From an uncultured Gammaproteobacteria bacterium (GTDB lineage Bacteria; Patescibacteriota; Patescibacteriia; Patescibacteriales; UBA12465): a stretch of DNA of 59,609 bases. Position numbers and translations under genes: made by a program. The notes under the pieces are model-generated. The model was not told the origin of the DNA. It worked only from the letters and a program-made list of their open reading frames with translations, and ran no database searches. The stretch covers positions 1 through 59,609 of the forward strand of contig CAZSRC010000001.1 in the NCBI GenBank assembly GCA_964609365.1. Direction: 5' to 3'. Shown piece by piece: positions 5,077 to 58,269 of this stretch (position 1 is its first letter; every line of letters starts with the position of its first letter).

Positions 5077-7638
5077 ATGAATAATGATATTAGTTCTCAA
5101 ATTGCTCTTGAGGGAGAGGTGCTTATTCAAAGTAATCTAAATTATTTATATTGGATTGCTTTTTTTGTTTTTGTTTTTTTACTTTTATATTTATTGAGAT
5201 ATTTTGTAAAATATTTTTCAGTTAGAAGTAAAGATAATTCTAATATTATTTTTTCAGTTCGCCTACCAAAGGAAAAACCAAAAGATCAGGACAGGGAATT
5301 GAGCATACAACAATTGAGAGAGGAGATAGCTAAAGGGGAGACTGTTTTTTCTAGTATTGGTGGTTTAAAAGCTGAAAGAGGTTTTGTGTCTTGGTTTTTT
5401 GGAAGAAAAGATAATTTTTCCTTTGAAATAGTATCAAATAAGGGAAAAATTTCTTTTTATGTAACTGCCCCTAAAAGTAAATCACTTTATTTAGAGCAGC
5501 AAATACACGCTCATTATCCAGAGGCTTCAATTGAGGCTGTTGAGGATTATAATGCTTTTAATTCCCAAGGATCAGTTTTAGCAGCTTATTTTAAAGCTAA
5601 GAGGAGTTTTGTGTTTCCTTTTCTTGATTATACCGACATGGAACATGATCCAATGAATTCATTAATAAATGTCATGTCCAAGTTAGAAAATAATGAAAGT
5701 ATTGCTATTCAATATGTTGTTAGAAGTGCAAAGAAAGATTGGCATGCAAAAATAAAAAGCTCTGTACAGAATGCTTATAAAAATAATGATGTTAGTCAAA
5801 TATTTAAAGCCAGTGGCTCAGCTTTTCATAATAGTATAAATTTTGTTATTTATGATGTTATTTTGGGAGCTTTAAATATTGGACAACCAGATAAAAAACC
5901 AGAAGATTCTGCAAACAAAAAAGAATTAACAGAAAAAGAAAGAGAGATGTTAAAAAAAATGGAGCAAAAAAATTCTAAATCAGGACTAGATGTAAATCTC
6001 AGAATTGTTGTTAGTGCTAATACTCAAGAAAAAACTAAACTTTATTTTGATAATATTAGTAGCGCTTTTAGCGAATATACTTATTATCAGTACGGTAATT
6101 CTTTTTATCAATATGATAATTCTATTTATTCTAAAATAAAAAGAAGTATTAACAAGCAATTAAAGCAAGAAAGACTAGTTAGTAGTTTTATATATAGACA
6201 GTTTATTGAATCACAAAGTTTTTTATTGAGCACACAAGAATTAGTTAGTATGTTTCATTTTCCACTACCTCATACTGAAACTCCAAATATTGATTGGCTC
6301 ACAGCAAAATCAGCTCCGGCTCCTAATAATATTCCCAAGGAGGGAGTTACATTGGGCTTTAATGTTTTTAGAGGACAGAAAACTGATGTTAAAATAAAAT
6401 CGATTGATCGCCGTCGCCATATGTATATTATTGGTAAATCTGGTACTGGTAAATCTGTTTTATTGAATAATTTAGCTATTCAAGATATTCAAAATGGTCA
6501 TGGAGTTTGTGTTATGGATCCAAACGGTGATTTAATTGAGGATATTTTAAATAGAGTTCCTCCAGAGAGAGCTGATGATGTAGTTGTTTTTTCTCCCGCA
6601 GATACCCAAAGGCCAATTGGTTTAAATCTATTAGAATATGATCCTCGTTATCCAGAGCAAAAAACTTTTGTTATTAATGAAATGATTGGAATCTTTGATA
6701 AATTATATGATCTAAAGGCAACTGGTGGACCTATGTTTGAGCAGTATATGAGAAATGCCTTATTACTTATCATGGATAGTCCAGAAACCGGTTCAACTTT
6801 AATGGAAATATCAAAAGTTTTAGCTGACGAAGATTTTAGAAGAATGAAAATAAAGCTTTGTAAAAATAAAACTGTAGTTGATTTTTGGCAAAAAGAAGCC
6901 GAAAAAGCTGGTGGAGAGGCTGCTCTAGCTAATATGGTCCCTTATATAACCTCTAAATTAACACCATTTGTCTCTAATGATATGATGATGCCTATCATTG
7001 GTCAGCAAAACAGTGCTTTTAATTTTAGAGATTTGATGGATAGTCAGAAAATATTAATGGTTGACCTTCCTAAGGGTTCCATTGGAGAGTCAAATGCCTA
7101 TTTATTAGGTATGATTATTGTTGGAAAAATATTAATGGCAGCATTATCTAGAACTGATATACCACAAGAACAAAGAAAGGATTTTTATTTATATATCGAT
7201 GAGTTTCAAAATTTTACTACTAATTCTATTTGCCAAATTTTATCTGAGGCTAGAAAATATGCTTTATGTTTGAATATTGCCCATCAATACATCGGTCAGC
7301 TTAGTAAAAATAATGATAATCAAATTAAGGATGCCGTTTTTGGTAACGTTGGAACTATGGTTAGTTTTAGAGTCGGGTCAGAAGATGCAGAATTTTTAGT
7401 TAAAGAGTATGGGCCAGTATTTAATCAATATGATTTAGTTAATGTTGGTAGAGGTGGCTTTGTTAAATTATTGGTTGATGGTCAGGCTGTTAGACCATTT
7501 TCTCTGCAAACTATTTGGCCTTTAATGGGTCAAAACAGGGAAGGCATGTCTAAGAATATCAGGGAATTAAGTCGTTATAAATATGGTCAAGATAGAGATA
7601 TTATTTTAAAAGAAATCTCACTAAGAAGTGATTTTTAA
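5077..7638 (+). CDS. Membrane-anchored VirD4/TraG/TraD-like (type IV coupling protein family) P-loop ATPase
   Basis: N-terminal TM (YLYWIAFFVFVFLLLYLL). Walker A is IIGKSGTGKSVLL and Walker B is FYLYIDEFQNF. 'ARKYALCLNIAHQYIGQL' resembles the TraG-D_C region. Confidence 0.7.
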   Translation: MNNDISSQIALEGEVLIQSNLNYLYWIAFFVFVFLLLYLLRYFVKYFSVRSKDNSNIIFSVRLPKEKPKDQDRELSIQQLREEIAKGETVFSSIGGLKAERGFVSWFFGRKDNFSFEIVSNKGKISFYVTAPKSKSLYLEQQIHAHYPEASIEAVEDYNAFNSQGSVLAAYFKAKRSFVFPFLDYTDMEHDPMNSLINVMSKLENNESIAIQYVVRSAKKDWHAKIKSSVQNAYKNNDVSQIFKASGSAFHNSINFVIYDVILGALNIGQPDKKPEDSANKKELTEKEREMLKKMEQKNSKSGLDVNLRIVVSANTQEKTKLYFDNISSAFSEYTYYQYGNSFYQYDNSIYSKIKRSINKQLKQERLVSSFIYRQFIESQSFLLSTQELVSMFHFPLPHTETPNIDWLTAKSAPAPNNIPKEGVTLGFNVFRGQKTDVKIKSIDRRRHMYIIGKSGTGKSVLLNNLAIQDIQNGHGVCVMDPNGDLIEDILNRVPPERADDVVVFSPADTQRPIGLNLLEYDPRYPEQKTFVINEMIGIFDKLYDLKATGGPMFEQYMRNALLLIMDSPETGSTLMEISKVLADEDFRRMKIKLCKNKTVVDFWQKEAEKAGGEAALANMVPYITSKLTPFVSNDMMMPIIGQQNSAFNFRDLMDSQKILMVDLPKGSIGESNAYLLGMIIVGKILMAALSRTDIPQEQRKDFYLYIDEFQNFTTNSICQILSEARKYALCLNIAHQYIGQLSKNNDNQIKDAVFGNVGTMVSFRVGSEDAEFLVKEYGPVFNQYDLVNVGRGGFVKLLVDGQAVRPFSLQTIWPLMGQNREGMSKNIRELSRYKYGQDRDIILKEISLRSDF

Positions 7639-10281: not shown

Positions 10282-10306
10282 AAGTATTTTAAAAAATTAT
10301 AATTTT

Positions 10307-10492
10307 TTATTTTGTAATTAAATACTCTAATCCAAAATTAAAAATATAGTCTAGAGCACCTAAGAATATAGCTACTGCTAAACTTAAACCTATAACCAAA
10401 ACAGTGTATCTATAAGTTTCTTTCTTGCTTGGCCAGCTAACTTTTTTTATCTCTGTTACTGACTCCTTAACATAATTAGTTATTTTTCCCAT
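10307..10492 (-). CDS. secE: Preprotein translocase subunit SecE
   Basis: 61 aa. 'ITNYVKESVTEIKKVSWPSKKET' followed by a single TM. Located immediately upstream of nusG. Confidence 0.9.
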   Translation of the reverse strand: MGKITNYVKESVTEIKKVSWPSKKETYRYTVLVIGLSLAVAIFLGALDYIFNFGLEYLITK

Positions 10493-10648: not shown

Positions 10649-12358
10649 ATGGTCAGTCCTCATTTAATAAAAAAGAAAGAGGGTCGTTTTAGCTTGAATG
10701 TTAATGCGAAAAAACTTTTTCAGTTAATTTATATAAAAAAAAATAAATTATCATCACCTTCGGATGATTCTTCAAAAATAATGGTTTCCACAATGGTTTC
10801 TCGTTTGTCTTTTTTTTATGAAAAAATTAGAAATGCTGTTGACTATGAGGACGATCATTTACTTAGAAAAAATGCAATTAAGCGTATTTTTAAAAGACAG
10901 ATAGTTATAGAGGGGATGATAAAAAATTCAAAGAGTCAAGAGATCTCCTTACATTTATTAACAGAATTAATTCAGGCTGGTTACTTGGAGAATAATTCAA
11001 TTCCAGAAAAAAAGATTTATGAGGTAGCTGATATTCTAGAAAAATATATTAAATTAAAAGAGTTTAGTTTTAAAAAGCAAGGATTTTTTTCTGGTTTTAA
11101 TAAAAAAAACAAAGATCAAAAAAATAAAAAAAAGAGAAAAAATAACGAAGAAAAGGTATTACTCGATTGGATATTATCAATGGCTGCGGCCGAAATAGAG
11201 GAAAATTTAACCAAAGATAATATTCAGCAAGAAATAGTCAGTGATATGTTTGATATTTTAAAAGATAATATCAAGTTGCCAAGAGACCTTCCTTTTGAAA
11301 GTGATTTAAATATTCAAATTTATTTAGGAATAGCTAGAAATTTTTTAAATTATGACGAAGACCTTCTCAGTTTTACAGTTTTTAAATATTATAATAAAGA
11401 TTGGGCGAAAATAAGTGATGCTGGCATTGAAGATCTTTCTGAAAAAATTGAAATATTACACTTAGCCATATCTCAGCAATTAAATCACCCTCTGAAAAAG
11501 CAATTAGATAAGATAATTAAATCATATTCTTTATATTATTCAATATTAAAAGAAGTTATTAATGAAAATCCAATTAAGGTTTATGATCAAGCGGTTAATA
11601 ATTACAAATCTTTTAATAATTTAGTTAAAGAAGCTTGCGAAAAAAGATTTAAAAAAATAAAAAAGAAACTTTGGAATTCTGGTTTTAGAAGTATTATTTA
11701 TATATTTTTAACTAAATCAATTTTTGTTTTTTTATTAGAAATTCCAGCAATTAGATATTTTGGTGAAGAGCTAAATGTTATCTCCCTAGCAATCAATGTT
11801 TCTTTTCCTGCATTCTTATTATTTGTAATGATTTTATTTACCTGGGCCCCAGCACAAGAAAATACTAAGAAAATAATTGAAGGAGTTGAGGAGGTTGTTT
11901 TTAGTGAAAAAAGAAGAAAAAGTTCAATTCTTTTAAGAAAACCAGCAAGGAGAAGTTTGGTTATGGATTTTATTTTTAATATCCTTTATTTAAGTGGTTT
12001 TTCCATAACAATTTATTTTATTATTGAAGTGCTGGGAATGATTCATTTTAACTGGGTAAATATAGTAATATTTTTATTTTTTCTAACTTTTGTCAGTTTT
12101 TTTAGTTTTAGAATTAAGCGCGATATTAAGAAGTTTATTATTATTGAGCCAAGTGAAGGATTTATTTCATTTTTGTTTGATTTTTTTTACACCCCAATAA
12201 TAGCTATGGGTAAATTTTTATCAGACAATGCTTCCAAGGTTAATGTTTTTGTTTTTGTTTTAGACTTTATAATTGAAGCACCATTTAAGGTGTTTATCGA
12301 AATATTTGATGATTGGATTAAATATATGAAGGAAAGAAAAGAGGATTTAGTTAATTAA
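10649..12358 (+). CDS. Hypothetical multi-pass membrane protein (soluble N-terminal half, 4-6 C-terminal TMs)
   Basis: 569-aa ORF heading a co-directional, tightly spaced gene string. Contains a K-rich insert (NKKNKDQKNKKKRKNNEEK) and hydrophobic C-terminal segments. No domain recognised. Confidence 0.6.
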   Translation: MVSPHLIKKKEGRFSLNVNAKKLFQLIYIKKNKLSSPSDDSSKIMVSTMVSRLSFFYEKIRNAVDYEDDHLLRKNAIKRIFKRQIVIEGMIKNSKSQEISLHLLTELIQAGYLENNSIPEKKIYEVADILEKYIKLKEFSFKKQGFFSGFNKKNKDQKNKKKRKNNEEKVLLDWILSMAAAEIEENLTKDNIQQEIVSDMFDILKDNIKLPRDLPFESDLNIQIYLGIARNFLNYDEDLLSFTVFKYYNKDWAKISDAGIEDLSEKIEILHLAISQQLNHPLKKQLDKIIKSYSLYYSILKEVINENPIKVYDQAVNNYKSFNNLVKEACEKRFKKIKKKLWNSGFRSIIYIFLTKSIFVFLLEIPAIRYFGEELNVISLAINVSFPAFLLFVMILFTWAPAQENTKKIIEGVEEVVFSEKRRKSSILLRKPARRSLVMDFIFNILYLSGFSITIYFIIEVLGMIHFNWVNIVIFLFFLTFVSFFSFRIKRDIKKFIIIEPSEGFISFLFDFFYTPIIAMGKFLSDNASKVNVFVFVLDFIIEAPFKVFIEIFDDWIKYMKERKEDLVN

Positions 12359-30889: not shown

Positions 30890-31318
30890 ATGAAATCCTT
30901 GTGGACAAAAATAGATAAAATTTTTATATCTAATAATGGTGTTTTTTTTACAAAAAAAAAGATAATAAAAAAAAATAAAAAAAATAACTTTTTTTATTTA
31001 AAATACAAGGAAGCAGCTCGTCGTTTAATTAGTAAGAAGGTGGAGGAATTTAATTTATTTTATAATTATAAAATAAACAAAATTAGTATCAGGGATCAAA
31101 AAACTCGCTGGGCTAGTTGCTCTAGGAGTGCAAATTTAAATTTTAATTATAAGATAATTTTTCTTCCCGAAGATTTAATTAATTATATAGTTGTTCATGA
31201 GATATGTCATTTAGGTGAGTTCAATCATTCTAAAAATTTTTGGAAACTTTTAGAAAAAAAAATTCCTAATTATCTAGTAGTCAGGAAAAAATTAAAATAT
31301 ATTAGAATTAATTTTTAA
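30890..31318 (+). CDS. YgjP/DUF45-like (M48-related) zinc metallohydrolase, N-terminally shortened
   Basis: 'IRDQKTRWASCSRSANLNFNYKIIFLP..LINYIVVHEICHL.EFNHSKNFWKLLEKKIPNY' is the conserved DUF45 catalytic half. The N-terminal third is K/N-rich low-complexity sequence encoded by A/T homopolymers. Confidence 0.7.
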   Translation: MKSLWTKIDKIFISNNGVFFTKKKIIKKNKKNNFFYLKYKEAARRLISKKVEEFNLFYNYKINKISIRDQKTRWASCSRSANLNFNYKIIFLPEDLINYIVVHEICHLGEFNHSKNFWKLLEKKIPNYLVVRKKLKYIRINF

Positions 31319-31818
31319 AAATTAATTTTTTTTATTTTATAGACAATATTTTTATTATTTATATTTAGAGAGAATTTTTCTCCACTTGATCTTCCTAGTA
31401 AAGCACTACCTAGTGGGGAGCTGTAAGAAATGAAACCTTTGCTAGGATTACTTTCTAGTGAACCAAGAATTTGAAAATTTCTAACACTTCCATTTATCTC
31501 TAGTTCAATAGTACTACCAATTTCTATTTTTTTACTATATTTATTATTTTCTATTATCTCTGCCCTAGACAAGAGATTCTCAATACTCAATATTTTACTA
31601 TTAGTTCTTCTTAGTCTATATTTAGATTCTTGGTAACCAGCATTTTCAGAGTAATCTCCTCCGGTTGATAATTCTTTTACCTCTTCTATTTGAATTGGTA
31701 AAACTTCTTTTTTTAGTTTATTTAAATTGCTTTGAAGTTGTTTATATTTCTCTATGGTTATCTTTGGTTCTATTTTTTCTCTTGGTATTTTATCGTTTTT
31801 TCTAGTTGGAACTCTCAT
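31315..31818 (-). CDS. greA: Transcription elongation factor GreA
   Basis: 'ITIEKYKQLQSNLNKLK......IEEVKELSTGGDYSENAGYQESK' coiled-coil finger, and a C-terminal 'SYSSPLGSALLGRSSGE' domain. Confidence 0.9.
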   Translation of the reverse strand: MRVPTRKNDKIPREKIEPKITIEKYKQLQSNLNKLKKEVLPIQIEEVKELSTGGDYSENAGYQESKYRLRRTNSKILSIENLLSRAEIIENNKYSKKIEIGSTIELEINGSVRNFQILGSLESNPSKGFISYSSPLGSALLGRSSGEKFSLNINNKNIVYKIKKINF

Positions 31819-36869: not shown

Positions 36870-38411
36870 ATGAGCTTTTTAAGCAAAATATTAGAAGTTA
36901 AATTTAGATCAAGATTTAAAGAGATTAATTTTTTTAAAAAAAATCCTCAATTAGCTCAGGAAAAGGTTTTTTTTGAACTAATTTCAAAAGCTCAAAAAAC
37001 CAAATGGGGCTTGAAATATGGTTACAAAGAAATATCTTCAAAAAAATTTAGAGAAGCTTATAGTACTTTCAAGGAAAGACTTCCTATTTCTAATTACGAA
37101 CAATTATTTGAATATATCGAGGTATTTTGTAGTGGTGAAAAAAATGTTTTATGGCCAGAAAAAATTAAATGGGCAGCAAAGTCATCAGGAACTACAAACA
37201 GTAAAAGTAAAATAATACCAATAACAAGTGATTCTTTAAAAAAATGTCATTACAAGGGCGGGCAAGATGTTTTTTCTTTTTACTTAAAGCAAAATCCAAA
37301 ATCTAAACTATTTTCAGGGAAAACACTAAGTATTGGTGGCTCTCTCTCTTTAGATAAGGGTAATTTTAATATTAAAATAGGTGACTTATCAGCTATTTTA
37401 ATGATAAATTTACCAATATGGGCTAGAATTTTTAGATCACCAAAATTAAAAATAGCCATGTTAAATGAATGGGATGAAAAACTTGAATTAATAGCCAAAT
37501 CAGCAATACAGCAAAATATTGTAGCATTGGCCGGAGTTCCTTCTTGGACATTATTAGTGTTAAATAAAGTTTTAGAGATAAGTAAAAAAAATAATATTTT
37601 AGAGGTTTGGCCAAATTTAGAACTTTTTGTTCATGGTGGAATTAGCTTTCTTCCTTATAAGAGTCAATTTAAATCAATAATACCTAGTGATAAAATGAAC
37701 TATCTAGAGACATATAATGCTTCTGAGGGATTTTTCGCTATAAATGATGATTTGAGTAGAGATGATATGTTATTAATTCTTGATTGCGGTATTTTTTATG
37801 AATTTGTAGAATTAGATGAGCTTTTAAAGGATAAGCCTAGGGTTTTAGGTGTAGATGATTTGGAGCTAGGCAAGACCTATGCTGTAATAATTTCCACTAA
37901 TGGTGGTTTATGGAGATATTTAATTGGTGATACTGTTAAAATAAGCTCCTTGAAACCAATAAGAATCAAGGTTGCTGGAAGAACTAAACATTTTATTAAT
38001 GTTTTTGGAGAAGAGTTAATGATTTCAAACACAGATGAAGCAATAGCTATTGCTTCTGAAAAAAATTTAGCTATAGTCTCTGATTATAGCCTTGCTCCAA
38101 TTTTTATGAATAATCAAAAATCTGGAGCTCATCAATGGATTATTGAATTTAGTCAAAAACCCAAAGATATTGAAAAATTTACCAAGGATCTAGACGACTC
38201 TCTAAAATCGTTAAATTCTGACTATGAAGCTAAGAGACATTCCGACATGATTTTATCTTTACCTCAGATAAATATAGCTAGAAAAAATCTTTTTTATGAT
38301 TGGTTGAAGAATAAAAATAAATTAGGTGGTCAGAATAAGGTTCCCAGACTATCTAATAGTAGAGAATATCTGGAAGAATTATTAACTTTAAATAAAAATG
38401 AAAAAAATTAA
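36870..38411 (+). CDS. GH3-family (plant auxin-responsive GH3-like) acyl-adenylating enzyme homologue
   Basis: 'AKSSGTTNSKSKIIP' P-loop-like motif, 'YNASEGFFA', 'GGLWRYLIGDTV' and 'GRTKHFINVFGEEL' match bacterial GH3 proteins. Confidence 0.7.
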   Translation: MSFLSKILEVKFRSRFKEINFFKKNPQLAQEKVFFELISKAQKTKWGLKYGYKEISSKKFREAYSTFKERLPISNYEQLFEYIEVFCSGEKNVLWPEKIKWAAKSSGTTNSKSKIIPITSDSLKKCHYKGGQDVFSFYLKQNPKSKLFSGKTLSIGGSLSLDKGNFNIKIGDLSAILMINLPIWARIFRSPKLKIAMLNEWDEKLELIAKSAIQQNIVALAGVPSWTLLVLNKVLEISKKNNILEVWPNLELFVHGGISFLPYKSQFKSIIPSDKMNYLETYNASEGFFAINDDLSRDDMLLILDCGIFYEFVELDELLKDKPRVLGVDDLELGKTYAVIISTNGGLWRYLIGDTVKISSLKPIRIKVAGRTKHFINVFGEELMISNTDEAIAIASEKNLAIVSDYSLAPIFMNNQKSGAHQWIIEFSQKPKDIEKFTKDLDDSLKSLNSDYEAKRHSDMILSLPQINIARKNLFYDWLKNKNKLGGQNKVPRLSNSREYLEELLTLNKNEKN

Positions 38412-52222: not shown

Positions 52223-53212
52223 ATGCAAAGAAAAATAGGACATCATAATAAACTAGAAAGGAACAAAAAAAGCTTCTCGAGTTCATTTAGAGCACCAAAA
52301 AAAGAAAAAAATTACAAATCATTAATAATATTAGTAATTTTATCTATCATAGTTATATCAATTATCTTATTTTTAGTCCTTTCTAGTTTTTTAAAAATAA
52401 AAAATACTGAAATAAAAGGATTAAATAATGAAAAAATGTTCGAAATTGAATCTATGGTGGAAAATCAAAAAAATACTAGAAAAATGTTGTTTAAACAGGA
52501 AAATTTAATATTTTTCAATCAATCAGACCTTATAAATTCATTAAATAGCTTTAATTTTCATGAAGTAAAGGTTAAAAAAGACTATTTTTCTAGAAAAATA
52601 ACAATCAACATAAAAGAAAGGGAAAAATCTATTATATTTTTAGAATCTTCGGATTATTTTTTCATAGATAAAGATGCTAATATAATTGAATCAATTAAAA
52701 GCTGTGAGTATCTAGAAAAAATAAAAGAACAAGAAGCCTCTAGTGCTACTAGTAGTAATAATTCTGTACAAGAGGATGCTCAAGGTCTAAATATAGAGTC
52801 GGAGCAGGATTTAGAGCAAGAACAGAGCTTAGAGCAAGAAGAATGCCTAAAAATAGACCAAGAATTTAAATCTAATAATTTACTACCTTTAATTGAGAAT
52901 AATGGCAAGAATAGACTTGATTCAAATAAAAAAATAATAAAATTAGAACCTGGATATATTGATTTTTCATTAAAATTATACAATGATTTAAGCGAAAACA
53001 GTGATTTCGGCTTTAAAAATATAATACTAGATGAAGAGTATAACACTGTAAAAGTTAGGCTAAATAATGATCTAGAGCTTTATTTTAGCTTTAAAAACGA
53101 CTATTTAGACCAGATTTCTAGATTTTTTACATTAAAAAGAGAGAGAATTAACGATCTAAAGGGTAAAAAATATATAGATTTTAGATATGGAGACAAAATA
53201 TATTATTATTAA
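52223..53212 (+). CDS. ftsQ: FtsQ/DivIB-like cell division protein (POTRA domain) with an acidic insert
   Basis: Basic N-terminus and a single TM. 'IKNTEIKGLNN' marks the POTRA start. Internal E/Q/S-rich insert (DLEQEQSLEQEE). Confidence 0.65.
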   Translation: MQRKIGHHNKLERNKKSFSSSFRAPKKEKNYKSLIILVILSIIVISIILFLVLSSFLKIKNTEIKGLNNEKMFEIESMVENQKNTRKMLFKQENLIFFNQSDLINSLNSFNFHEVKVKKDYFSRKITINIKEREKSIIFLESSDYFFIDKDANIIESIKSCEYLEKIKEQEASSATSSNNSVQEDAQGLNIESEQDLEQEQSLEQEECLKIDQEFKSNNLLPLIENNGKNRLDSNKKIIKLEPGYIDFSLKLYNDLSENSDFGFKNIILDEEYNTVKVRLNNDLELYFSFKNDYLDQISRFFTLKRERINDLKGKKYIDFRYGDKIYYY

Positions 53213-53224
53213 TTTTTAAATATT

Positions 53225-53368
53225 ATGGGAGAAGGTGCATTTAAATTTATTTTTTCTTTGGCTATTTTTGTTTTTTGTTTAGTAACAATAGGAATATTTT
53301 TAATAATTTTAAAAATAATGTTATTATTTACGCCACAAATAAGCCTAATGGGCTTAACTATTTATTAA
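53225..53368 (+). CDS. Possible small hydrophobic peptide (47 aa, below track cut-off)
   Basis: My own translation is MGEGAFKFIFSLAIFVFCLVTIGIFLIILKIMLLFTPQISLMGLTIY*. It begins 12 nt after the ftsQ stop and has one or two TM helices. Confidence 0.3.
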   Translation: MGEGAFKFIFSLAIFVFCLVTIGIFLIILKIMLLFTPQISLMGLTIY

Positions 53369-53415
53369 TATTATTATTCTTTTATTATCGTATTTTATAT
53401 GTTACTATATAGTAT

Positions 53416-53443
53416 AGGTTAATTAATATACATTATGCGAAGT
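53416..53443 (-). other. Candidate dif-like Xer recombination site
   Basis: The minus-strand reading ACTTCGCATAATGTATATTAATTAACCT shares a contiguous 16-nt identity (CGCATAATGTATATTA) with E. coli dif as I recall it. It matches 20/28 to E. coli dif and 21/28 to B. subtilis dif. It lies 77 nt upstream of the xer gene. Confidence 0.45.
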
Positions 53444-53456
53444 ATTATATAAAACA

Positions 53457-53478
53457 TTTATTACTATATAGTAATAAA
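53457..53478. repeat. 22-bp perfect palindrome TTTATTACTATATAGTAATAAA; its 12-bp core TACTATATAGTA also occurs at 53403-53414
   Basis: Read directly. The two cores lie 59 bp apart and bracket the dif-like site. The second is 41 nt upstream of the xer ATG. Confidence 0.9.
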
Positions 53479-53519: not shown

Positions 53520-54467
53520 ATGGAAAATAAGGCAATTATTAAATATCTTAGAGACTTTTTGGATTATTGTGAAATTGAAAAAGGTTTATCAATTAAAACT
53601 CAGGAAAATTATTCTAGATTCTTAAATAAGTTTTTTAATTGGTTAAAAGATAATAAACTGGATCAATTAAAACCAGGATCATTAAATGATGAGCTTATTT
53701 GGCGATATCGACTTTTTCTATCCAGGCATATAGATGCAAGAACCAAGAAGAGTCTTAAAAAATCTACTCAAAATTATTATTTAATAGCATTGAGAAGTCT
53801 TTTAGAATTTTTTGTAGAAAAAAATATTAATTCTTTGGCTCCTAGTAAAATAAAACTGGCCAGAGATAGATCAGAAAGAGAAATTAAATTTTTAAATTTA
53901 GATCAACTAGAAAGACTTCTGGATTCGCCAGAGCAATCTACAATTATTGGTCTAAGAGATAAATCTATTTTAGAGAGCCTATTCTCTACCGGACTTCGAG
54001 TTTCTGAATTAATAAACCTAAATAGAGATCAAATAAAAATAAAAAATGATTCTGACTACTTAGAAATAACAATAGTTGGAAAGGGTCAAAAAGTAAGAAC
54101 GGTTTATTTTTCCAAGAGGGCTATAAGTGCTTTAAAAAAATATCTAGATAAAAGGTTTGATCTTGACCCTTCCCTATTTATAAATTTTAAACCAGGGATA
54201 GAAAAAACTGATAAATCAAGAAGATTAACTGCTAAAAGTATCGAGGATATAGTAAAAAAATATATAAAAATAGCAGGATTACCAATAATGGCTACTCCTC
54301 ATACTCTTAGACATAGTTTTGCAACTGATTTATTATCTCAAGGAGTTGATTTAAGGCTTGTCCAAGAGTTTTTGGGCCACAAGAACATTGCAACAACCCA
54401 AATATACACTCATGTAACGAGCAAACAACTAAGGGATGTCCATAAAAAAATACATAATAAAAGATAA
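53520..54467 (+). CDS. XerC/XerD-type tyrosine site-specific recombinase
   Basis: N-terminal SAM-like domain. Catalytic residues are in 'GLRVSEL' (R), 'GKGQKVR' (K), 'HTLRHSFAT' (H-x-x-R), 'LGH' and 'TQIYTH' (Y). Confidence 0.9.
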   Translation: MENKAIIKYLRDFLDYCEIEKGLSIKTQENYSRFLNKFFNWLKDNKLDQLKPGSLNDELIWRYRLFLSRHIDARTKKSLKKSTQNYYLIALRSLLEFFVEKNINSLAPSKIKLARDRSEREIKFLNLDQLERLLDSPEQSTIIGLRDKSILESLFSTGLRVSELINLNRDQIKIKNDSDYLEITIVGKGQKVRTVYFSKRAISALKKYLDKRFDLDPSLFINFKPGIEKTDKSRRLTAKSIEDIVKKYIKIAGLPIMATPHTLRHSFATDLLSQGVDLRLVQEFLGHKNIATTQIYTHVTSKQLRDVHKKIHNKR

Positions 54468-54526
54468 AAAAACTAGTCGAATGACTAGTTTTTTTGTTAT
54501 ACTTTTTTTATTTTTTTTATTATTGA

Positions 54527-55768
54527 CTAGGGTAAATAATTCAATGGATTAACTGGAATACCATTTTTTCTTATTTCAAAATGAAGATGAGGTCCAGTTG
54601 AAAATGGCCCAGCACCAGTTGTTCGAGGAGCTCCTCCGGTTTTTCCAATAACTTGACCCTGACTAACATACTCATCAGCTCTAACACTAACCCCTGAAAC
54701 ATGTCCGTAGACAGTTGAAAAATTATCAGCATGGATTATCATAATATAAGAATAGGCGGTACTACCATCAAATTTAACTCTAGCAACATAACCAGAGGCA
54801 GCAGCCTTAAGGGTTGTTCCCTGAGCAGCTCTAATATCAACACCAGAATGTTCGCCTATAGATTTTCTAAAAGGATAAGATGGATCGCGAAAAGTTGCTG
54901 TAATTGTATTCTTTGTAACTGGCCAAGACCAACCACTTAATGTTTCACCTAGGCCATTATCTTTTTTTTGAGCCAACTTTTCTCTAACTGTTTTTTCAAG
55001 TGAAGATATCTCTGCCATCGCTTGGTCATTTTCCCTTTTAGCTAAATCTAATAATTTTTTATATTCTTTTTCAGATTTTTTAGTTTCAGTTAGTATGAAT
55101 TCTTTATTACTTATCTCCCCTTCTAAAATATTTTTCTTATTTTCTAATTCTTTTTTTAAAACATCTAATGTAAGTTTTTTTTCTTCTAATATCTTTTTTT
55201 GGCTATCCATTTCATCTTTTGAAATTCTTAGAGATGCTAAACTAGTAGCAAGTTCTTTATTGGCATTTTCTAAATAGGTTAATTGATTTATAAAATCAGC
55301 CAAGGAGTTATTTAATAATATTATCTCCAAAGGGCTAACCTGACCTTGTTTATGAAGCATTTTTAATAAAGTAGCAATATGATTCTTTTTTTTCTCAATT
55401 TGCTCTAATTTATTATCAATATCTATTTCTATTTTTTTTATTTCTAAATTATTTTTACTAATCTCTAAAGTAGCCTCTTCTATTTCTAGCTCTGATTTCA
55501 TTAAACGAGTATCTAATATTTCAAGTTGATTTTGTAGAGTATCCTGCTCCTGTTCTTTTGATTTTATTAATTTAGAATATTCTTGTTGTTTTTTTTGAAT
55601 ATTCTCTAATTGTTTTCTTTGGTTTTGAATTTTATTGTTTAAATCTTGAACCTCATCATCAATAGAATTGTATTGACCAATAGCAAAATTAGATTGGGAT
55701 AAAAAAATACCCAAAATTAAATAAAATGAAAAAATAATTATAAATATTTTATTTTTTTTCTTAATCAT
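54527..55768 (-). CDS. M23 (LytM-domain) peptidase with a long N-terminal coiled coil (EnvC-like architecture)
   Basis: Signal or anchor, about 250 aa of heptad-rich sequence, then 'HSGVDI', 'YGH' and 'GPHLHFEI'. Confidence 0.88.
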   Translation of the reverse strand: MIKKKNKIFIIIFSFYLILGIFLSQSNFAIGQYNSIDDEVQDLNNKIQNQRKQLENIQKKQQEYSKLIKSKEQEQDTLQNQLEILDTRLMKSELEIEEATLEISKNNLEIKKIEIDIDNKLEQIEKKKNHIATLLKMLHKQGQVSPLEIILLNNSLADFINQLTYLENANKELATSLASLRISKDEMDSQKKILEEKKLTLDVLKKELENKKNILEGEISNKEFILTETKKSEKEYKKLLDLAKRENDQAMAEISSLEKTVREKLAQKKDNGLGETLSGWSWPVTKNTITATFRDPSYPFRKSIGEHSGVDIRAAQGTTLKAAASGYVARVKFDGSTAYSYIMIIHADNFSTVYGHVSGVSVRADEYVSQGQVIGKTGGAPRTTGAGPFSTGPHLHFEIRKNGIPVNPLNYLP

Positions 55769-55806
55769 AATTTATTTATATCATATTTTGATAAAAAAGG
55801 CAATAA

Positions 55807-58269
55807 CTATAAATCCTCTAAATAATCTTTTTTTATTAAGTTTATTAGACGACTTTTACTGGCAGGATAATTATTTTGATTAAAATTGCTATAAGAAAGA
55901 AAAATTTCTTTTCTCGCTCTAGTAAGCGCTACATAAAATAAACGCTTTTCCTCTTCTAGATTATCACTTTTAAATATAGGAAAAGAACCCTCATTTAAAC
56001 CCAGAATAAAAATATAATCAAATTCCAGTCCTTTAACCTGATGAATTGTTACTATTGGTATTTTTCCTTGTTCTAGTCCTAAAAAATCAATATTTTTTAG
56101 CAAACCAGAAAAATGAAGCAAATTATGTAAGGAACTCCTACTTGTTAAGGATAAGTCATCCCTGGTTTCAAAAAATTTTTTTAAAGTCTGAAAAGATCTC
56201 TCTCTTTGCTTAAAATTTTTATCTTGATAATAATCTTTTAAACCTGACTCTACCCATATAAAATCCAGTAATTCATCTGGTCTTTTTTTGTCTAATTCTT
56301 TTTCCCAATTATATATACTAGAACTAATATTTATAAACTTATTTTTAAATTTATTCCAAAGATTGGTTCTTTCTTCTAATTTATTCTTTAATATTTTTAT
56401 TAAATATAACAATAAATCAATAGTAGCAGCAACATCATCATCAGCACTATGAGTAGCGTTTTTAAAATTTAAATATTTAGCTATATTACTAAGTTTATAG
56501 GAGTCGAGATTCAAAAATCTTCTTGATAAATCTAGAGTATCATAATAATTTTTAAAATCAATATTGATATTATGTCTCTTAGAGTTTTCCTTGATCATAT
56601 TTAAATCAAAGATTATATTATGACCGCAAACAATAGAGTCTCCTATAAAATCTTTGAGATTTTTTAATATTTTTTTAGGGTCCTCTCCTTTTTCTTTCAA
56701 AAACTCATCACTAATTTTATGAACAAAATATGCCGATCCAACTGATTTTTTATTTTTTAAATAATGATGAAATTCTTTGCCAAGTTTGCCATTCACTAAT
56801 TCCCTAGCATAAACCTGGACTATTTCATCGGAACTAGGATTTACTCCGGTTGTCTCCGTATCCAAAACAATAATTCTACCATTATCATGTTGAGATATTA
56901 GTTGTTGATATGGTTCTACAAAATTGTAATTTTTAAAACTTAAAAAATCTGAAATATTTAAACCACAATCTCTACCATTATCATTAATCTTATTTAAGCT
57001 TTCCTCTCCAATGTTTTTTGCTGGCCTTTCGATTAATCTCTTGGCTGAAAATAAATCATTTTTATTTATTAATATTTTTAAATAAGCCAAAATATCCTTA
57101 ATTTCTTTGCGTTTAAAAAAATCATATTGATCAACTGTAAGAAAGGAGATTTTATTTTGAGAAAATATTTCAGCTATATCCTTTATAGCTTTATTAGTCC
57201 TATTTAAAACGGCTATTTTTGCATCAGGATCCTTATCTTTAATTTTCTTTATATTATCAATGGACCAAAGCACCTCTTCGGAAAAATTATAAGCTCTGAA
57301 TAAGTGGACATATTTTTGTCCTTCACTATCATGAGATTGCCCATAATCACTTAACTCCTTAGTTTGAGGCTTCTCCATATTATTCAAAACCGAAAGAAAA
57401 ACTTTAATTAACTCTGGATTAGAGCGATAATTTATTCTCAAAGACATTTCCTTAACGGGATTAAAATGATTTTTAAATAATTGTGCTATGAAAACTGGCT
57501 GAGAGTCCCTAAAACTATAAATAGTTTGATCAATATCACCGATAAATGAGATATTTTTATGTTTTTTAGCTAACTCCTTAATAACTAAATACTCTGATAA
57601 GTGTGTATCTTGAAATTCGTCTAGTTGAATAAAACGAAAACGATTTGACCATTTTTCATTTATTTCGCGATTATTGATTAGAGTTTTTAAAGTTAATAAA
57701 ACAAGCTCATTAAAATCTAGGGCATTTTGCTTTGACAATTCTTCTAAATATTTTTGACTAAAATTAATTAATTCCGGTTCAAGCTCTTTTAGCTTAATGT
57801 TGTGACCCATCTCTAATTGCATCAGTGAAACTCTGTATTTATAAATACTTTCTAAAATATTATAAATATCATTTTTATTTTCAATAAATATTTTTTTTTC
57901 TTTGCTTAAAATATTTCTTACTAAATCAAGTTGGTCATCTTCGTCTAGAATTATAAAGTCTGAGTTTATATTAATACTCTTAGATTCGGCTTTAATAAAA
58001 TAAGCGCAAAAACCATGGAAGGTATTAATATTTAAAGCATCATAATCATTTTTATCATTAATTCTTTCTTTAATTCTACTTTTCATTTCCTCTGAAGCTC
58101 TATTGGTAAAAGTAAGGGCCAAGATTTCACTTGGCTTTATGCCCTGCTCAATAGCCTTAATAATTCTCTCTGTTAAAACTGTTGTTTTTCCAGTACCAAC
58201 TGGAGCATTAACTAGATATGCTCCAAAAATATTATTGATAATTTCTTGTTGTTCATTATTGAATTTCAT
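55807..58269 (-). CDS. UvrD/PcrA-family SF1 helicase with an inserted DEDDh (DnaQ-like) 3'-5' exonuclease domain
   Basis: Helicase motifs: 'NAPVGTGKTT', 'IQLDEFQDT', 'YRSN', 'VTIHQVKGLEFDYIF', 'LFYVALTRARKE'. Between 2A and the C-terminus are 'VLDTETTG', 'GHNIIFDLNM' and 'HSADDDVAAT' (Exo I/II/III). Confidence 0.85.
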   Translation of the reverse strand: MKFNNEQQEIINNIFGAYLVNAPVGTGKTTVLTERIIKAIEQGIKPSEILALTFTNRASEEMKSRIKERINDKNDYDALNINTFHGFCAYFIKAESKSININSDFIILDEDDQLDLVRNILSKEKKIFIENKNDIYNILESIYKYRVSLMQLEMGHNIKLKELEPELINFSQKYLEELSKQNALDFNELVLLTLKTLINNREINEKWSNRFRFIQLDEFQDTHLSEYLVIKELAKKHKNISFIGDIDQTIYSFRDSQPVFIAQLFKNHFNPVKEMSLRINYRSNPELIKVFLSVLNNMEKPQTKELSDYGQSHDSEGQKYVHLFRAYNFSEEVLWSIDNIKKIKDKDPDAKIAVLNRTNKAIKDIAEIFSQNKISFLTVDQYDFFKRKEIKDILAYLKILINKNDLFSAKRLIERPAKNIGEESLNKINDNGRDCGLNISDFLSFKNYNFVEPYQQLISQHDNGRIIVLDTETTGVNPSSDEIVQVYARELVNGKLGKEFHHYLKNKKSVGSAYFVHKISDEFLKEKGEDPKKILKNLKDFIGDSIVCGHNIIFDLNMIKENSKRHNINIDFKNYYDTLDLSRRFLNLDSYKLSNIAKYLNFKNATHSADDDVAATIDLLLYLIKILKNKLEERTNLWNKFKNKFINISSSIYNWEKELDKKRPDELLDFIWVESGLKDYYQDKNFKQRERSFQTLKKFFETRDDLSLTSRSSLHNLLHFSGLLKNIDFLGLEQGKIPIVTIHQVKGLEFDYIFILGLNEGSFPIFKSDNLEEEKRLFYVALTRARKEIFLSYSNFNQNNYPASKSRLINLIKKDYLEDL

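What the first reader, a model, noticed from the sequence alone, without database searches (positions are those of the whole stretch)
53403..53478. dif-like 28-mer bracketed by two copies of a palindrome, immediately upstream of the xer recombinase gene and at a gene-orientation switch
- The minus-strand reading of 53416-53443 is ACTTCGCATAA-TGTATA-TTAATTAACCT.
- Compared with E. coli dif as I recall it (GGTGCGCATAATGTATATTATGTTAAAT), it has 16 contiguous identical bases spanning the inner XerC arm, the whole 6-bp spacer and the start of the XerD arm, 20/28 overall. It matches B. subtilis dif (ACTTCCTAGAATATATATTATGTAAACT) at 21/28. The outer XerD arm is the weak part.
- It is flanked by the 12-bp palindrome TACTATATAGTA (53403-53414) and by a 22-bp perfect palindrome containing the same core (53457-53478).
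- The 22-mer itself has the form of 8-bp arms around TATATA, so it is an alternative recombinase core site or an operator.
- In single-recombinase systems (XerS/difSL, XerH/difH) the site sits next to the recombinase gene, as here.
- All 20 genes from 33956 to 54467 are on the plus strand and the next two long genes (54527-58269) are on the minus strand. That fits a replication terminus near 54 kb.
Basis: partly seen in the sequence, partly recalled or inferred. Interest (0 to 1): 0.65.

Follow-up and report, generated by a model that had tools for sequence, protein, structure and literature searches.

The report
Conserved dif site beside xer gene
A 28-base site just upstream of a Xer recombinase gene in an uncultivated Patescibacteria genome is almost certainly that enzyme's own recombination target (a dif site used to separate chromosome dimers), whereas the palindromes around it are a strain-specific extra.

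Summary
The 28-mer (53416-53443) and both palindromes are in the sequence as described. The 28-mer is functional sequence. In 75 of 77 related species loci found through the Xer protein alone, the same 11-6-11 site lies 1-1108 bp upstream of xer. It is always in the same orientation, and the xer-proximal arm TTATGCGAAGT is invariant while the flanking DNA has diverged. A second recombinase family fills the same chromosomal slot in other Patescibacteria and has a different 28-mer of its own, so site and enzyme co-vary. Tailed-phage contigs carry look-alikes of the site. I conclude it is the cognate Xer recombination site, most likely the chromosomal dif.

The palindromes are not part of it. They are absent from every relative, one is broken in a strain variant, and long AT palindromes are common in this window.

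The terminus claim is only partly supported. The window has three other plus-to-minus gene switches. Across relatives, 37 of 47 loci switch GC skew at the module, and the strand-independent skew component changes sign. However, 9 of 44 show no switch within 7 kb, and no whole chromosome could be read. Whether one recombinase suffices is untested.

Verdict: a new member of a known kind, apparently undescribed for this phylum.

The parts
53416..53443 (+). dif-type 28-mer, read in the direction of xer: AGGTTAATTAA-TATACA-TTATGCGAAGT
   Evidence: Unique in the window. Identical or near-identical upstream of xer in 75 of 77 related species loci. About 2 bits per position across positions 8-28, while flanks fall below 0.5 bit.
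This arm varies between lineages.
   Evidence: Variants across relatives are AGGTTAATTAA, AGGTGTATTAA, ACGTTAATTAA and ACTTCGCTTAA. A1, T4 and TTAA (positions 8-11) are kept. In about a quarter of the sites this arm matches the inverted copy of the other arm at 9-11 of 11 positions.
53427..53432 (+). 6-bp central region TATACA, the presumed strand-exchange region
   Evidence: Across 129 distinct xer-linked sites: TATACA 68, TCTACA 46, and a few CCTACA or TCTATA. The cleavage positions are inferred, not shown.
53433..53443 (+). xer-proximal arm TTATGCGAAGT, the invariant arm
   Evidence: 11/11 in 73 and 10/11 in 2 of the 75 protein-ascertained loci that have the site, always on the xer side.
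53520..54467 (+). xer gene, a 315-aa tyrosine recombinase of the XerC/XerD/XerA type
   Evidence: Pfam Phage_integrase plus SAM-like N domain. NCBIfam XerC 225 bits, XerD 223, XerA 197, all below their cut-offs. The alignment to E. coli XerD (1a0p) keeps the catalytic R, K, H-x-x-R, H and Y motifs. More than 120 protein clusters at 70-84 % identity, named Patescibacteria or Falkowbacteria where a source names them.
53403..53414 (.). 12-bp palindrome TACTATATAGTA, copy 1. Strain-specific and not part of the conserved site.
   Evidence: Present. Absent in all relatives. C>T at 53405 in strain variants of runs X3 and X6.
53457..53478 (.). 22-bp perfect palindrome TTTATTACTATATAGTAATAAA holding copy 2, 42 bp before the xer start. 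Possibly a promoter or operator element of this strain.
   Evidence: Present. Not conserved in relatives. One of five perfect palindromes of 20 bp or more in the window.
54463..54498 (.). Hairpin with T/A runs on both sides, a bidirectional terminator-like site between the convergent xer and M23 genes
54527..55768 (-). Coiled-coil M23 peptidase gene (EnvC/PcsB-like), convergent with xer. A conserved neighbour of the module.
   Evidence: Pfam Peptidase_M23. The same neighbour is found in L001, L004, L217, L219, L221 and L222.
52223..53212 (+). Membrane-anchored protein in the FtsQ/DivIB (POTRA) position, a conserved upstream neighbour
   Evidence: No Pfam hit itself. The syntenic proteins in L219, L221 and L223 hit POTRA_1 or FtsQ_DivIB_C. 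Weak pairwise similarity over the POTRA region, E 0.002.
53225..53368 (+). Conserved 47-aa hydrophobic ORF between the FtsQ-like gene and the site
   Evidence: Called as a 47-aa gene in L001-L003. The sequence is conserved in L001 and L216.

Best explanation
The 28-mer at 53416-53443 is the cognate recombination site of the recombinase encoded 77 bp downstream. It is a dif site of a Patescibacteria (Falkowbacteria-like) chromosome, forming a gene-plus-site module at a conserved housekeeping locus (SerRS, alanine racemase, FtsQ-like, dif, xer, convergent M23 peptidase).

Proposed working, inferred by analogy with characterised Xer systems:
- Xer monomers bind the invariant arm TTATGCGAAGT strongly and the variable arm AGGTTAATTAA more weakly.
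- Two occupied sites on a chromosome dimer synapse at division.
- The catalytic tyrosines exchange strands across the 6-bp centre TATACA, which turns the dimer into monomers.

Because the site lies within about 50-130 bp of the start codon in most relatives, bound Xer may also limit its own transcription. This is speculative.

The two flanking palindromes are strain-specific AT-rich palindromes. They could be a local operator or promoter feature and are not part of the recombination core.

Shown: presence, uniqueness, conservation, fixed orientation, co-variation with the recombinase family, an intact catalytic motif set, and look-alike sites on phage contigs.
Inferred: recombination itself, dimer resolution, terminus position, FtsK control, and one recombinase being enough.
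For: 1. Site conservation. The genome-collection scan used Xer peptide patterns only and returned 80 species loci.
- In 75 of the 77 with enough upstream DNA, a 28-mer whose half-site matches TTATGCGAAGT at 10 of 11 or better lies 1-1108 bp upstream of xer, always with that arm towards xer.
- The DNA on both sides of the 28-mer is unalignable between relatives.

2. Reverse test. An exact-pattern scan of metagenome contigs gave 120 hits. Of the 107 with room beside the site, 76 have xer immediately downstream (median 88 bp). Six more have xer next to the other arm of a near-palindromic site.

3. Architecture. It has 11-bp inverted arms around 6 bp. It matches experimentally confirmed dif at 20/28 (E. 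coli) and 21/28 (B. subtilis), with 16 contiguous bases.

4. Co-variation.
- In other Patescibacteria a 32 %-identical recombinase family sits in the same Alr, FtsQ, xer, M23 slot.
- In 4 of 4 such loci it is preceded by a different near-palindromic 28-mer, A[TC]TGAGTATAA-TAAC[TC]C-TTACACTCA[AG]T.
- Loci that hold both genes carry the first type of site in front of the first type of gene.

5. Enzyme. It is a full-length XerC/D/A-like recombinase with its catalytic residues. It is highly conserved among housekeeping genes, not in a mobile element.

6. Many sites have nearly identical arms, including ACTTCGCATAA-TATACA-TTATGCGAAGT in L022. This is what binding of one protein to both arms predicts.

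7. Phage contigs carry look-alike sites. This parallels the Legionella case, where a dif mimic on the element LME-1 led to the host dif (PMC9765430).

8. Terminus-type surroundings in relatives.
- Upstream 10 kb is about 90 % plus-strand, and downstream turns to the minus strand.
- GC skew is positive upstream and negative downstream in 37 of 47 loci.
- The local cumulative-skew maximum falls within 300 bp of the site in 14 of 44 loci, where about 2 are expected.
- The strand-independent skew component is +0.023 upstream (95 % CI 0.003 to 0.066) and -0.019 downstream (-0.033 to -0.006).
Against: - No recombination, binding or phenotype data exist.
- Uniqueness per genome was shown only for the window and for 20-kb loci.
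- Terminus position is not established:
  - The window's own skew maximum is at 54376, the 3' end of xer, on a plateau from 53.4 to 54.5 kb.
  - Only 5 kb follow the switch.
  - The window has three other plus-to-minus switches.
  - 9 of 44 relatives, among them the complete chromosome OW818634.1 (L058), show no skew switch within 7 kb.
  - Loci are phylogenetically related and partly syntenic, so the counts are not independent.
- L035 has no site and L080 has a degenerate one.
- A second recombinase elsewhere in the genome cannot be excluded. Two loci (L213, L221) do carry two recombinase genes in tandem.
Confidence: 0.78

Rival explanations
1. Same site, but a two-recombinase (XerC/XerD-like) system. 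The adjacent Xer binds the invariant arm, and a second paralogue encoded elsewhere binds the variable arm.
For: - The arms are asymmetric in the window, with only 5 of 11 positions symmetric (counted from the site read), and in most relatives.
- A second conserved Xer-like family exists in the phylum and lies in tandem with the first in L213 and L221.
Against: - No second recombinase in the 59.6-kb window or within 10 kb of the site in 80 species loci.
- The second family occupies the same slot alone in other lineages, with its own palindromic site. This looks like replacement rather than partnership.
- About a quarter of sites in this clade have near-identical arms although their Xer proteins are at least 66 % identical to the window's.
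- In the tandem loci the site has two first-type arms.
Confidence: 0.2
2. The 28-mer is only an operator through which Xer or another dimeric protein regulates xer transcription. It is not a recombination site.
For: - It lies 19-130 bp from the start codon in most relatives.
- A weakly conserved AT-rich, -10-like stretch follows it.
Against: - In about 15 species it lies 500-1108 bp away, with an unrelated ORF in between, and is still perfectly conserved.
- The 11-6-11 form and the match to confirmed dif sites fit a tyrosine-recombinase core site.
- Phage contigs without xer carry look-alike sites.
- The promoter scan of the region is not above chance, 13 found against 9.0 +/- 2.6 expected.
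Confidence: 0.05
3. xer and the 28-mer belong to an integrated mobile element, as integrase plus att site, and not to chromosome maintenance.
For: - Tyrosine recombinase next to its site is the usual layout of integrative elements.
- One phage contig (L089) has an integrase of its own beside a similar site.
Against: - The gene is 66-84 % identical across at least 80 species and keeps the same housekeeping neighbours (FtsQ-like, Alr, SerRS, M23 peptidase).
- Only one copy of the site per locus, with no second att site.
- There are no phage or conjugation genes nearby.
Confidence: 0.03
4. The palindromes (12-mer and 22-mer) are functional partners of the site, either as accessory or alternative core sites for the recombinase or as a conserved operator.
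For: - Two exact copies of TACTATATAGTA sit 59 bp apart and bracket the 28-mer, which is more than chance.
- The 22-mer has 8-bp arms around TATATA.
Against: - Absent in all relatives, including L216 (84 % Xer identity), L007 and L218 (82 %), and L001, L009 and L010 (80 %).
- 53405 C>T in strain variants destroys copy 1, while the 28-mer is unchanged.
- The arms are unlike the conserved dif arms.
- Long AT palindromes are over-represented throughout the window.
Confidence: 0.05

Closest known systems
XerS/difSL of streptococci and lactococci (Le Bourgeois 2007, PMC1914069; review PMC5357621)
   Same: - The recombination site lies immediately beside the recombinase gene as one module.
- One arm is bound better than the other in difSL. 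Here one arm is invariant and one is variable.
   Different: - XerS is about 356 aa and a distinct family. The window's protein scores 117 bits on the XerS model against a cut-off of 267.
- difSL is 31 bp with an 11-bp centre. Here the site is 28 bp with a 6-bp centre.
XerH/difH of Helicobacter and Campylobacter (PMC3325230, PMC5241119)
   Same: - The site is near the recombinase gene.
- The arms are asymmetric, one stronger than the other.
   Different: - XerH is 354-362 aa and only distantly related (PDB 5jjv, E 9e-16, against E 2.5e-36 for XerD).
- The arm sequences are unrelated.
Canonical XerC/XerD-dif of E. coli and CodV/RipX-dif of B. subtilis
   Same: - A 28-bp site of 11-6-11 form.
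- 20/28 and 21/28 identity, including the whole E. coli centre TGTATA.
- The protein is about 300 aa, and its best PDB match is XerD.
   Different: - The protein scores below both equivalog cut-offs and equally on XerC and XerD.
- The site is linked to the gene.
- The invariant arm is the one aligned with the XerC arm, while the XerD-position arm is the variable one.
- No second recombinase was seen nearby.
- At the C-terminus, XerD's LRQLHQQ aligns with LRDVHKK. The review lists RQ-QQ as the XerD residues that contact FtsK.
Archaeal XerA/dif (Cortez 2010, PMC2958812)
   Same: - A single XerC/D-like recombinase.
- A 28-bp site with near-identical arms and AT-rich flanks.
- The window's protein scores 197 bits on the XerA model.
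   Different: - The score is below the XerA cut-off of 220.
- Thermococcales dif sites are not next to xerA.
- The organism here is bacterial.
XerL/dif of Legionellales and the dif mimic on LME-1 (Nicholson 2022, PMC9765430)
   Same: - A lineage-specific Xer system found in a group where none had been described.
- A mobile element carries a mimic of the site.
   Different: - A different recombinase lineage.
- Here the carriers of the look-alike sites are tailed-phage contigs, and integration has not been seen.
'Cand' subgroup of simple tyrosine recombinases (Smyshlyaev 2021, PMC8138268)
   Same: Described as Xer-related recombinases of candidate phyla. The window's protein is probably one of them.
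   Different: - That paper classifies proteins only. The phrase 'dif site' does not occur in it.
- I could not test membership of the subgroup.

Membership tests
Xer/dif chromosome dimer resolution system (general) | Core site of two roughly 11-bp inverted arms around a 6-11-bp central region | tested here: met
   AGGTTAATTAA-TATACA-TTATGCGAAGT. The same frame is conserved in 129 distinct sites.
Xer/dif chromosome dimer resolution system (general) | Xer-family tyrosine recombinase with the catalytic R-K-H-R-H-Y set | tested here: met
   Pfam and NCBIfam hits. The motifs align with E. coli XerD 1a0p and are invariant in 32 homologues.
Xer/dif chromosome dimer resolution system (general) | Site conserved among related genomes | tested here: met
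   75 of 77 species loci ascertained through the protein.
Xer/dif chromosome dimer resolution system (general) | Single copy per chromosome | tested here: inconclusive
   One copy in the 59.6-kb window and one full site per 20-kb locus. Whole genomes could not be read.
Xer/dif chromosome dimer resolution system (general) | Located at the replication terminus (GC-skew switch opposite the origin) | tested here: inconclusive
   The local skew and gene-strand switch are present in 37 of 47 relatives, and the strand-independent component changes sign. 9 of 44 show no switch. In the window the switch is confounded with gene strand. No dnaA signature was found in any held locus.
Xer/dif chromosome dimer resolution system (general) | Recombination between two sites, controlled by FtsK at division | not testable with these tools
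   No FtsK gene in the window among the proteins scanned. This needs an experiment.
Single-recombinase modules XerS/difSL and XerH/difH | Site adjacent to the recombinase gene | tested here: met
   77 bp in the window. Median 88 bp in 76 metagenome loci.
Single-recombinase modules XerS/difSL and XerH/difH | Protein belongs to the XerS or XerH family (about 355 aa) | tested here: not met
   315 aa. XerS model 117 bits against a cut-off of 267. XerH chain 5jjv only E 9e-16.
Single-recombinase modules XerS/difSL and XerH/difH | Only one Xer recombinase in the genome | not testable with these tools
   None other in the window or within 10 kb in 80 loci.
Canonical XerC/XerD | Protein reaches the XerC or XerD equivalog score | tested here: not met
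   XerC 225.5 against 335.15, and XerD 223.3 against 329.6.
Canonical XerC/XerD | Two paralogous recombinases, each binding one arm | not tested
   See the rival explanation. Tandem pairs exist only in L213 and L221.
Archaeal XerA | Protein reaches the XerA equivalog score | tested here: not met
   197.2 against 220.
Integrative element (integrase plus att site) | Two att copies bounding element genes, with variable presence among relatives | tested here: not met
   A single site, housekeeping neighbours, and a conserved locus in 80 or more species.

The most novel reading that the evidence does not exclude
Patescibacteria resolve chromosome dimers with gene-linked, probably single-recombinase modules of XerC/D-like proteins.
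- Two mutually replacing recombinase families each carry their own 28-bp dif at the same FtsQ, dif, xer, M23 locus.
- Tailed phages of these bacteria carry look-alikes of the host dif beside their terminase genes. They may use the host Xer to integrate or to resolve their own multimers.
- If so, these would be tailed phages that exploit Xer. I found no report of such phages in the searched literature.
Probability: 0.3. Interest if true: 0.7.

Novelty: new member of a known kind. Interest (0 to 1): 0.45.

Why it matters
Dimer resolution sites are known or predicted for most cultured bacterial phyla. I found no description for the Candidate Phyla Radiation: no paper in the searched library holds Patescibacteria, dif and recombinase together.

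What a defined dif would give:
- a terminus marker for checking and orienting the many genomes of this group that are assembled from metagenomes;
- a short, invariant, species-spanning sequence that breaks metagenome assemblies at that point;
- a testable enzyme-site pair;
- a lead to phages that may exploit it.

It also shows that gene-linked Xer modules are not confined to the divergent XerS and XerH families.

Tried and rejected
- **Total identity to known dif sites:** not a valid test in this AT-rich window. An unrelated 20/28 match exists at 10731. I relied on the 16-mer run and on conservation instead.
- **Rfam and tRNA scans of the window:** nothing.
- **RNA-seq runs holding the locus:** none listed, so no transcription start could be mapped.
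- **Promoter scan:** not above chance.
- **DnaA signature search in all held loci:** nothing. This is only weak evidence against an origin nearby.
- **Finding a second Xer on the same long contigs by matching contig lengths:** no match between the two homologue lists.
- **Phage sites having an inverted central region relative to host sites:** dropped. TGTATA differs from the host variant TCTATA at one base, and the core is itself nearly palindromic.
- **Integrated prophages at the site:** no terminase homologue in any of the 80 genome loci.
- **Polar, FtsK-orienting words:** not attempted. Gene strand and replichore are almost fully confounded in the DNA held.

Full report
**1. What is in the sequence.**
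- Read in the direction of the downstream gene, the 28-mer at 53416-53443 is AGGTTAATTAA-TATACA-TTATGCGAAGT.
- TACTATATAGTA lies at 53403-53414 and again inside the perfect 22-bp palindrome at 53457-53478.
- The recalled E. coli and B. subtilis dif sequences are those used by Kono et al. (PMC3025954).
- The identities are 20/28 and 21/28, with a shared run of 16 bases.
- Neither the 16-mer nor the 28-mer occurs in shuffled windows.
- Total identity alone means little at 28 % GC, because another 20/28 match to E. coli dif lies at 10731.
- The gene at 53520-54467 encodes a 315-aa tyrosine recombinase. It is followed by a bidirectional terminator-like hairpin and two minus-strand genes, for an M23 peptidase and a UvrD-like helicase.
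- I count 15 long plus-strand ORFs and one 47-aa ORF from 33956 to 54467, not 20.

**2. The organism and the enzyme.**
- The recombinase has more than 120 homologue clusters at 70-84 % identity. Where a source names them, they come from Patescibacteria, mostly Falkowbacteria.
- The window holds housekeeping genes: aminoacyl-tRNA synthetases, CTP synthase, H+-pyrophosphatase, BipA and alanine racemase. It is therefore chromosomal DNA of a Candidate Phyla Radiation bacterium.
- The same strain occurs in bioreactor, wastewater and manure metagenomes.
- The protein scores equally on the XerC and XerD models (225 and 223 bits) and 197 on archaeal XerA. All are below the curated cut-offs. It scores far lower on XerS.
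- Its best solved relative is E. coli XerD. The catalytic Arg, Lys, His-x-x-Arg, His and Tyr motifs align and are invariant in 32 homologues.
- It is the only tyrosine recombinase in the window.

**3. The 28-mer is conserved, the rest is not.**
- I collected 80 species loci from a genome collection using peptide patterns of the recombinase only. Three have almost no upstream DNA.
- In 75 of the other 77, a 28-mer with the arm TTATGCGAAGT (11/11 in 73, 10/11 in 2) lies 1-1108 bp upstream of xer, most often 50-130 bp. That arm always faces the gene.
- L080 has a degenerate copy and L035 has none.
- The sequence on either side of the 28-mer cannot be aligned even between species whose Xer proteins are 80-84 % identical.
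- Information content is about 2 bits per position over positions 8-28. It falls below 0.5 bit a few bases outside. Part of that set was ascertained by pattern, so the protein-ascertained loci carry the argument.
- The reverse test agrees. Of 120 metagenome contigs holding TTAANNTANATTATGCGAAGT, 107 have room beside the site. In 76 of those, xer follows directly. In six more, xer lies next to the other arm of a near-palindromic site.
- In metagenomes that hold this strain, contigs of other species match the window only across the 28-mer, and assemblies break there.

**4. Anatomy of the site.**
- The xer-proximal arm is invariant.
- The centre is TATACA or TCTACA in 114 of 129 distinct sites.
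- The distal arm keeps A1, T4 and TTAA but otherwise varies by lineage. It ranges from AGGTTAATTAA (the window) to ACTTCGCTTAA, which mirrors the proximal arm at 10 of 11 positions. L022 has perfectly symmetric arms.

**5. Site and enzyme co-vary.**
- A second Xer-like family, 32 % identical and also below the XerC and XerD cut-offs, is just as widely conserved in other Patescibacteria.
- It sits in the same slot: SerRS, alanine racemase, an FtsQ/POTRA protein, the recombinase, then a convergent M23 peptidase.
- All four such loci carry a different near-palindromic 28-mer 50-70 bp upstream of the gene: A[TC]TGAGTATAA-TAAC[TC]C-TTACACTCA[AG]T.
- Two loci hold both genes in tandem. They carry a first-type site in front of the first-type gene.
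- A site whose sequence changes with the neighbouring recombinase family, at a fixed chromosomal position, is best explained as that enzyme's target.

**6. The palindromes.**
- They are present and unlikely by chance, but nothing supports a role in recombination.
- No relative has them.
- Strain variants in runs X3 and X6 carry C>T at 53405, which breaks the first copy, while the 28-mer and the 22-mer are unchanged.
- Their arms do not resemble the conserved arms.
- The window has five perfect palindromes of 20 bp or more where a first-order model expects 0.3.
- Relatives tend to have some TA-rich stretch on both sides of the site. This resembles the AT-rich flanks reported for Thermococcales dif.
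- I treat the palindromes as strain-specific. At most they are a local promoter or operator feature.

**7. Is it at the terminus?**
The window alone cannot say.
- GC skew tracks gene strand, and there are three other plus-to-minus switches, near 8.5, 17.5 and 31.3 kb.
- The cumulative maximum is at 54376, on a plateau that begins at the site, and only 5 kb follow.

Relatives add moderate support.
- The 10 kb upstream are about 90 % plus-strand in some 50 species with partly different genes. The first 5 kb downstream are minus-strand.
- Skew is positive upstream and negative downstream in 37 of 47 loci.
- The local cumulative maximum lies within 300 bp of the site in 14 of 44 loci, against about 2 expected. 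That is at the site rather than at the end of the plus-strand xer gene.
- Separating coding-strand from strand-independent skew gives +0.023 upstream (CI 0.003 to 0.066) and -0.019 downstream (-0.033 to -0.006).

Against it:
- 9 of 44 loci show no switch within 7 kb, including one complete chromosome (L058).
- Gene strand further downstream is mixed.
- The loci are related to one another.
- The complete chromosome CP066698.1 (L045) does switch 53 bp from the site.
- Whole-genome skew could not be computed with the access I had.

**8. One recombinase or two?** Not settled.

For one:
- no second gene within 10 kb in 80 loci;
- near-identical arms in a quarter of the sites;
- the two families replacing each other at one locus.

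For two:
- asymmetric arms in the window;
- tandem pairs in two loci.

I put the two-recombinase version at about 0.2.

**9. Comparison and novelty.**
- In layout this works like the XerS/difSL and XerH/difH modules, with the site beside the gene and unequal arms. It is not a member of those protein families, and the site is a classical 28-mer with a 6-bp centre.
- In protein and site type it is closest to XerC/D and archaeal XerA. It fails all three equivalog thresholds, and those sites are not gene-linked.
- Smyshlyaev et al. grouped Xer-related recombinases of candidate phyla as a 'Cand' subgroup without describing a site.
- I found no paper that treats dif in Patescibacteria.
- I therefore file it as a new member of a known kind. 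It is an ordinary function, newly located in a poorly known phylum, with some unusual details.

**10. Side finding.**
- Nine viral contigs and several metagenome contigs without xer carry sites with both arms of the host type.
- In L087, L088, L090, L091 and L095 the site lies beside the terminase genes of tailed phages.
- L099 and L141 also have terminases, and L141 has a DnaD-like replication gene.
- No recombinase gene was found in the parts held, except in L089.
- These phages may integrate at the host site or resolve their own multimers through the host enzyme. No integrated copy was seen.

Noticed in passing
L087:1803-1830, L088:2792-2819, L090:10844-10871, L091:1156-1183 (= L102), L094:14591-14618, L095:9754-9781; also L099:131-158, L141:2024-2051, L176:6218-6245: Tailed-phage contigs (large and small terminase, major tail protein, primase, DnaD-like loader) carry a look-alike of the host 28-mer, ACTTC[TG][AC]TTAA-N6-TTATGCGAAGT. 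It is usually beside the terminase genes, and no recombinase gene lies in the DNA held. They may be phages that exploit the host Xer for integration or multimer resolution.
   Followed up: partly
L219:5938-5965, L220:5918-5945, L222:3938-3965, L223:3941-3968; tandem genes in L213:4382-6804 and L221:2511-4933: A second conserved Xer-like family (32 % identical) occupies the same Alr, FtsQ, xer, M23 slot in other Patescibacteria. It has its own near-palindromic 28-mer, ATTGAGTATAA-TAACTC-TTACACTCAAT. Two loci hold both recombinase genes in tandem, separated by a 166-189-aa ORF.
   Followed up: partly
L024:8993-9998, L037:8890-9998, L054:8948-9998, L085:8872-9980, L011, L015, L022, L031, L046, L071, L074: In about 15 relatives the site is 500-1108 bp from xer. 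The gap usually holds one ORF of about 60-270 aa, on the minus strand in all but L085, and mostly unrelated between lineages. L046, L071 and L075 also have a lone extra half-site next to the xer start. These may be remnants of insertions at the site.
   Followed up: partly
window 53225-53368 (+): A 47-aa hydrophobic ORF (MGEGAFKFIFSLAIFVFCLVTIGIFLIILKIMLLFTPQISLMGLTIY) between the FtsQ-like gene and the site. It is conserved at the protein level in L001 and L216 and is called as a gene in L001-L003. No family hit.
   Followed up: partly
window 55807-58269 (-): An 820-aa UvrD/Rep-type helicase with an RNase T/DnaQ-like 3'-5' exonuclease domain (residues 467-620) inserted in the C-terminal helicase domain. 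The same architecture appears in L217.
   Followed up: no
window 31054-31077, 31306-31327, 10290-10309, 38037-38056, 53457-53478: Perfect palindromes of 20-24 bp are over-represented in the window, 5 observed against 0.3 expected under a first-order model. Four of the five consist only of A and T.
   Followed up: partly
window 53413-53469 in runs X1 and X2: Contig depth rises several-fold exactly over the 28-mer, and Logan contigs end at 53416/53417 and 53444-53447. Co-occurring related species share only these 28 bases, so the site acts as an inter-genome repeat that breaks metagenome assemblies.
   Followed up: yes
L194:11532-12359 and L106:98-125: A recombinase only 30 % identical to the window's Xer lies next to a site with the same invariant arm (ATAGTAATTAA-TGTATA-TTATGCGAAGT). 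This may be a third enzyme lineage using a related site.
   Followed up: no
L004:9885-9975: Between the site and xer in L004 there are two GC-rich hairpins (GTGGGACCTCCATGCCCAC, and GGCAGCGTCTTC...GAAGACGCTGCC followed by a T run) in otherwise AT-rich DNA. They could be a terminator or a small structured RNA.
   Followed up: no
window 5077-7638 (+): An 853-aa protein with a TrwB-type coupling-protein DNA-binding domain (type IV secretion), lying among housekeeping genes.
   Followed up: no
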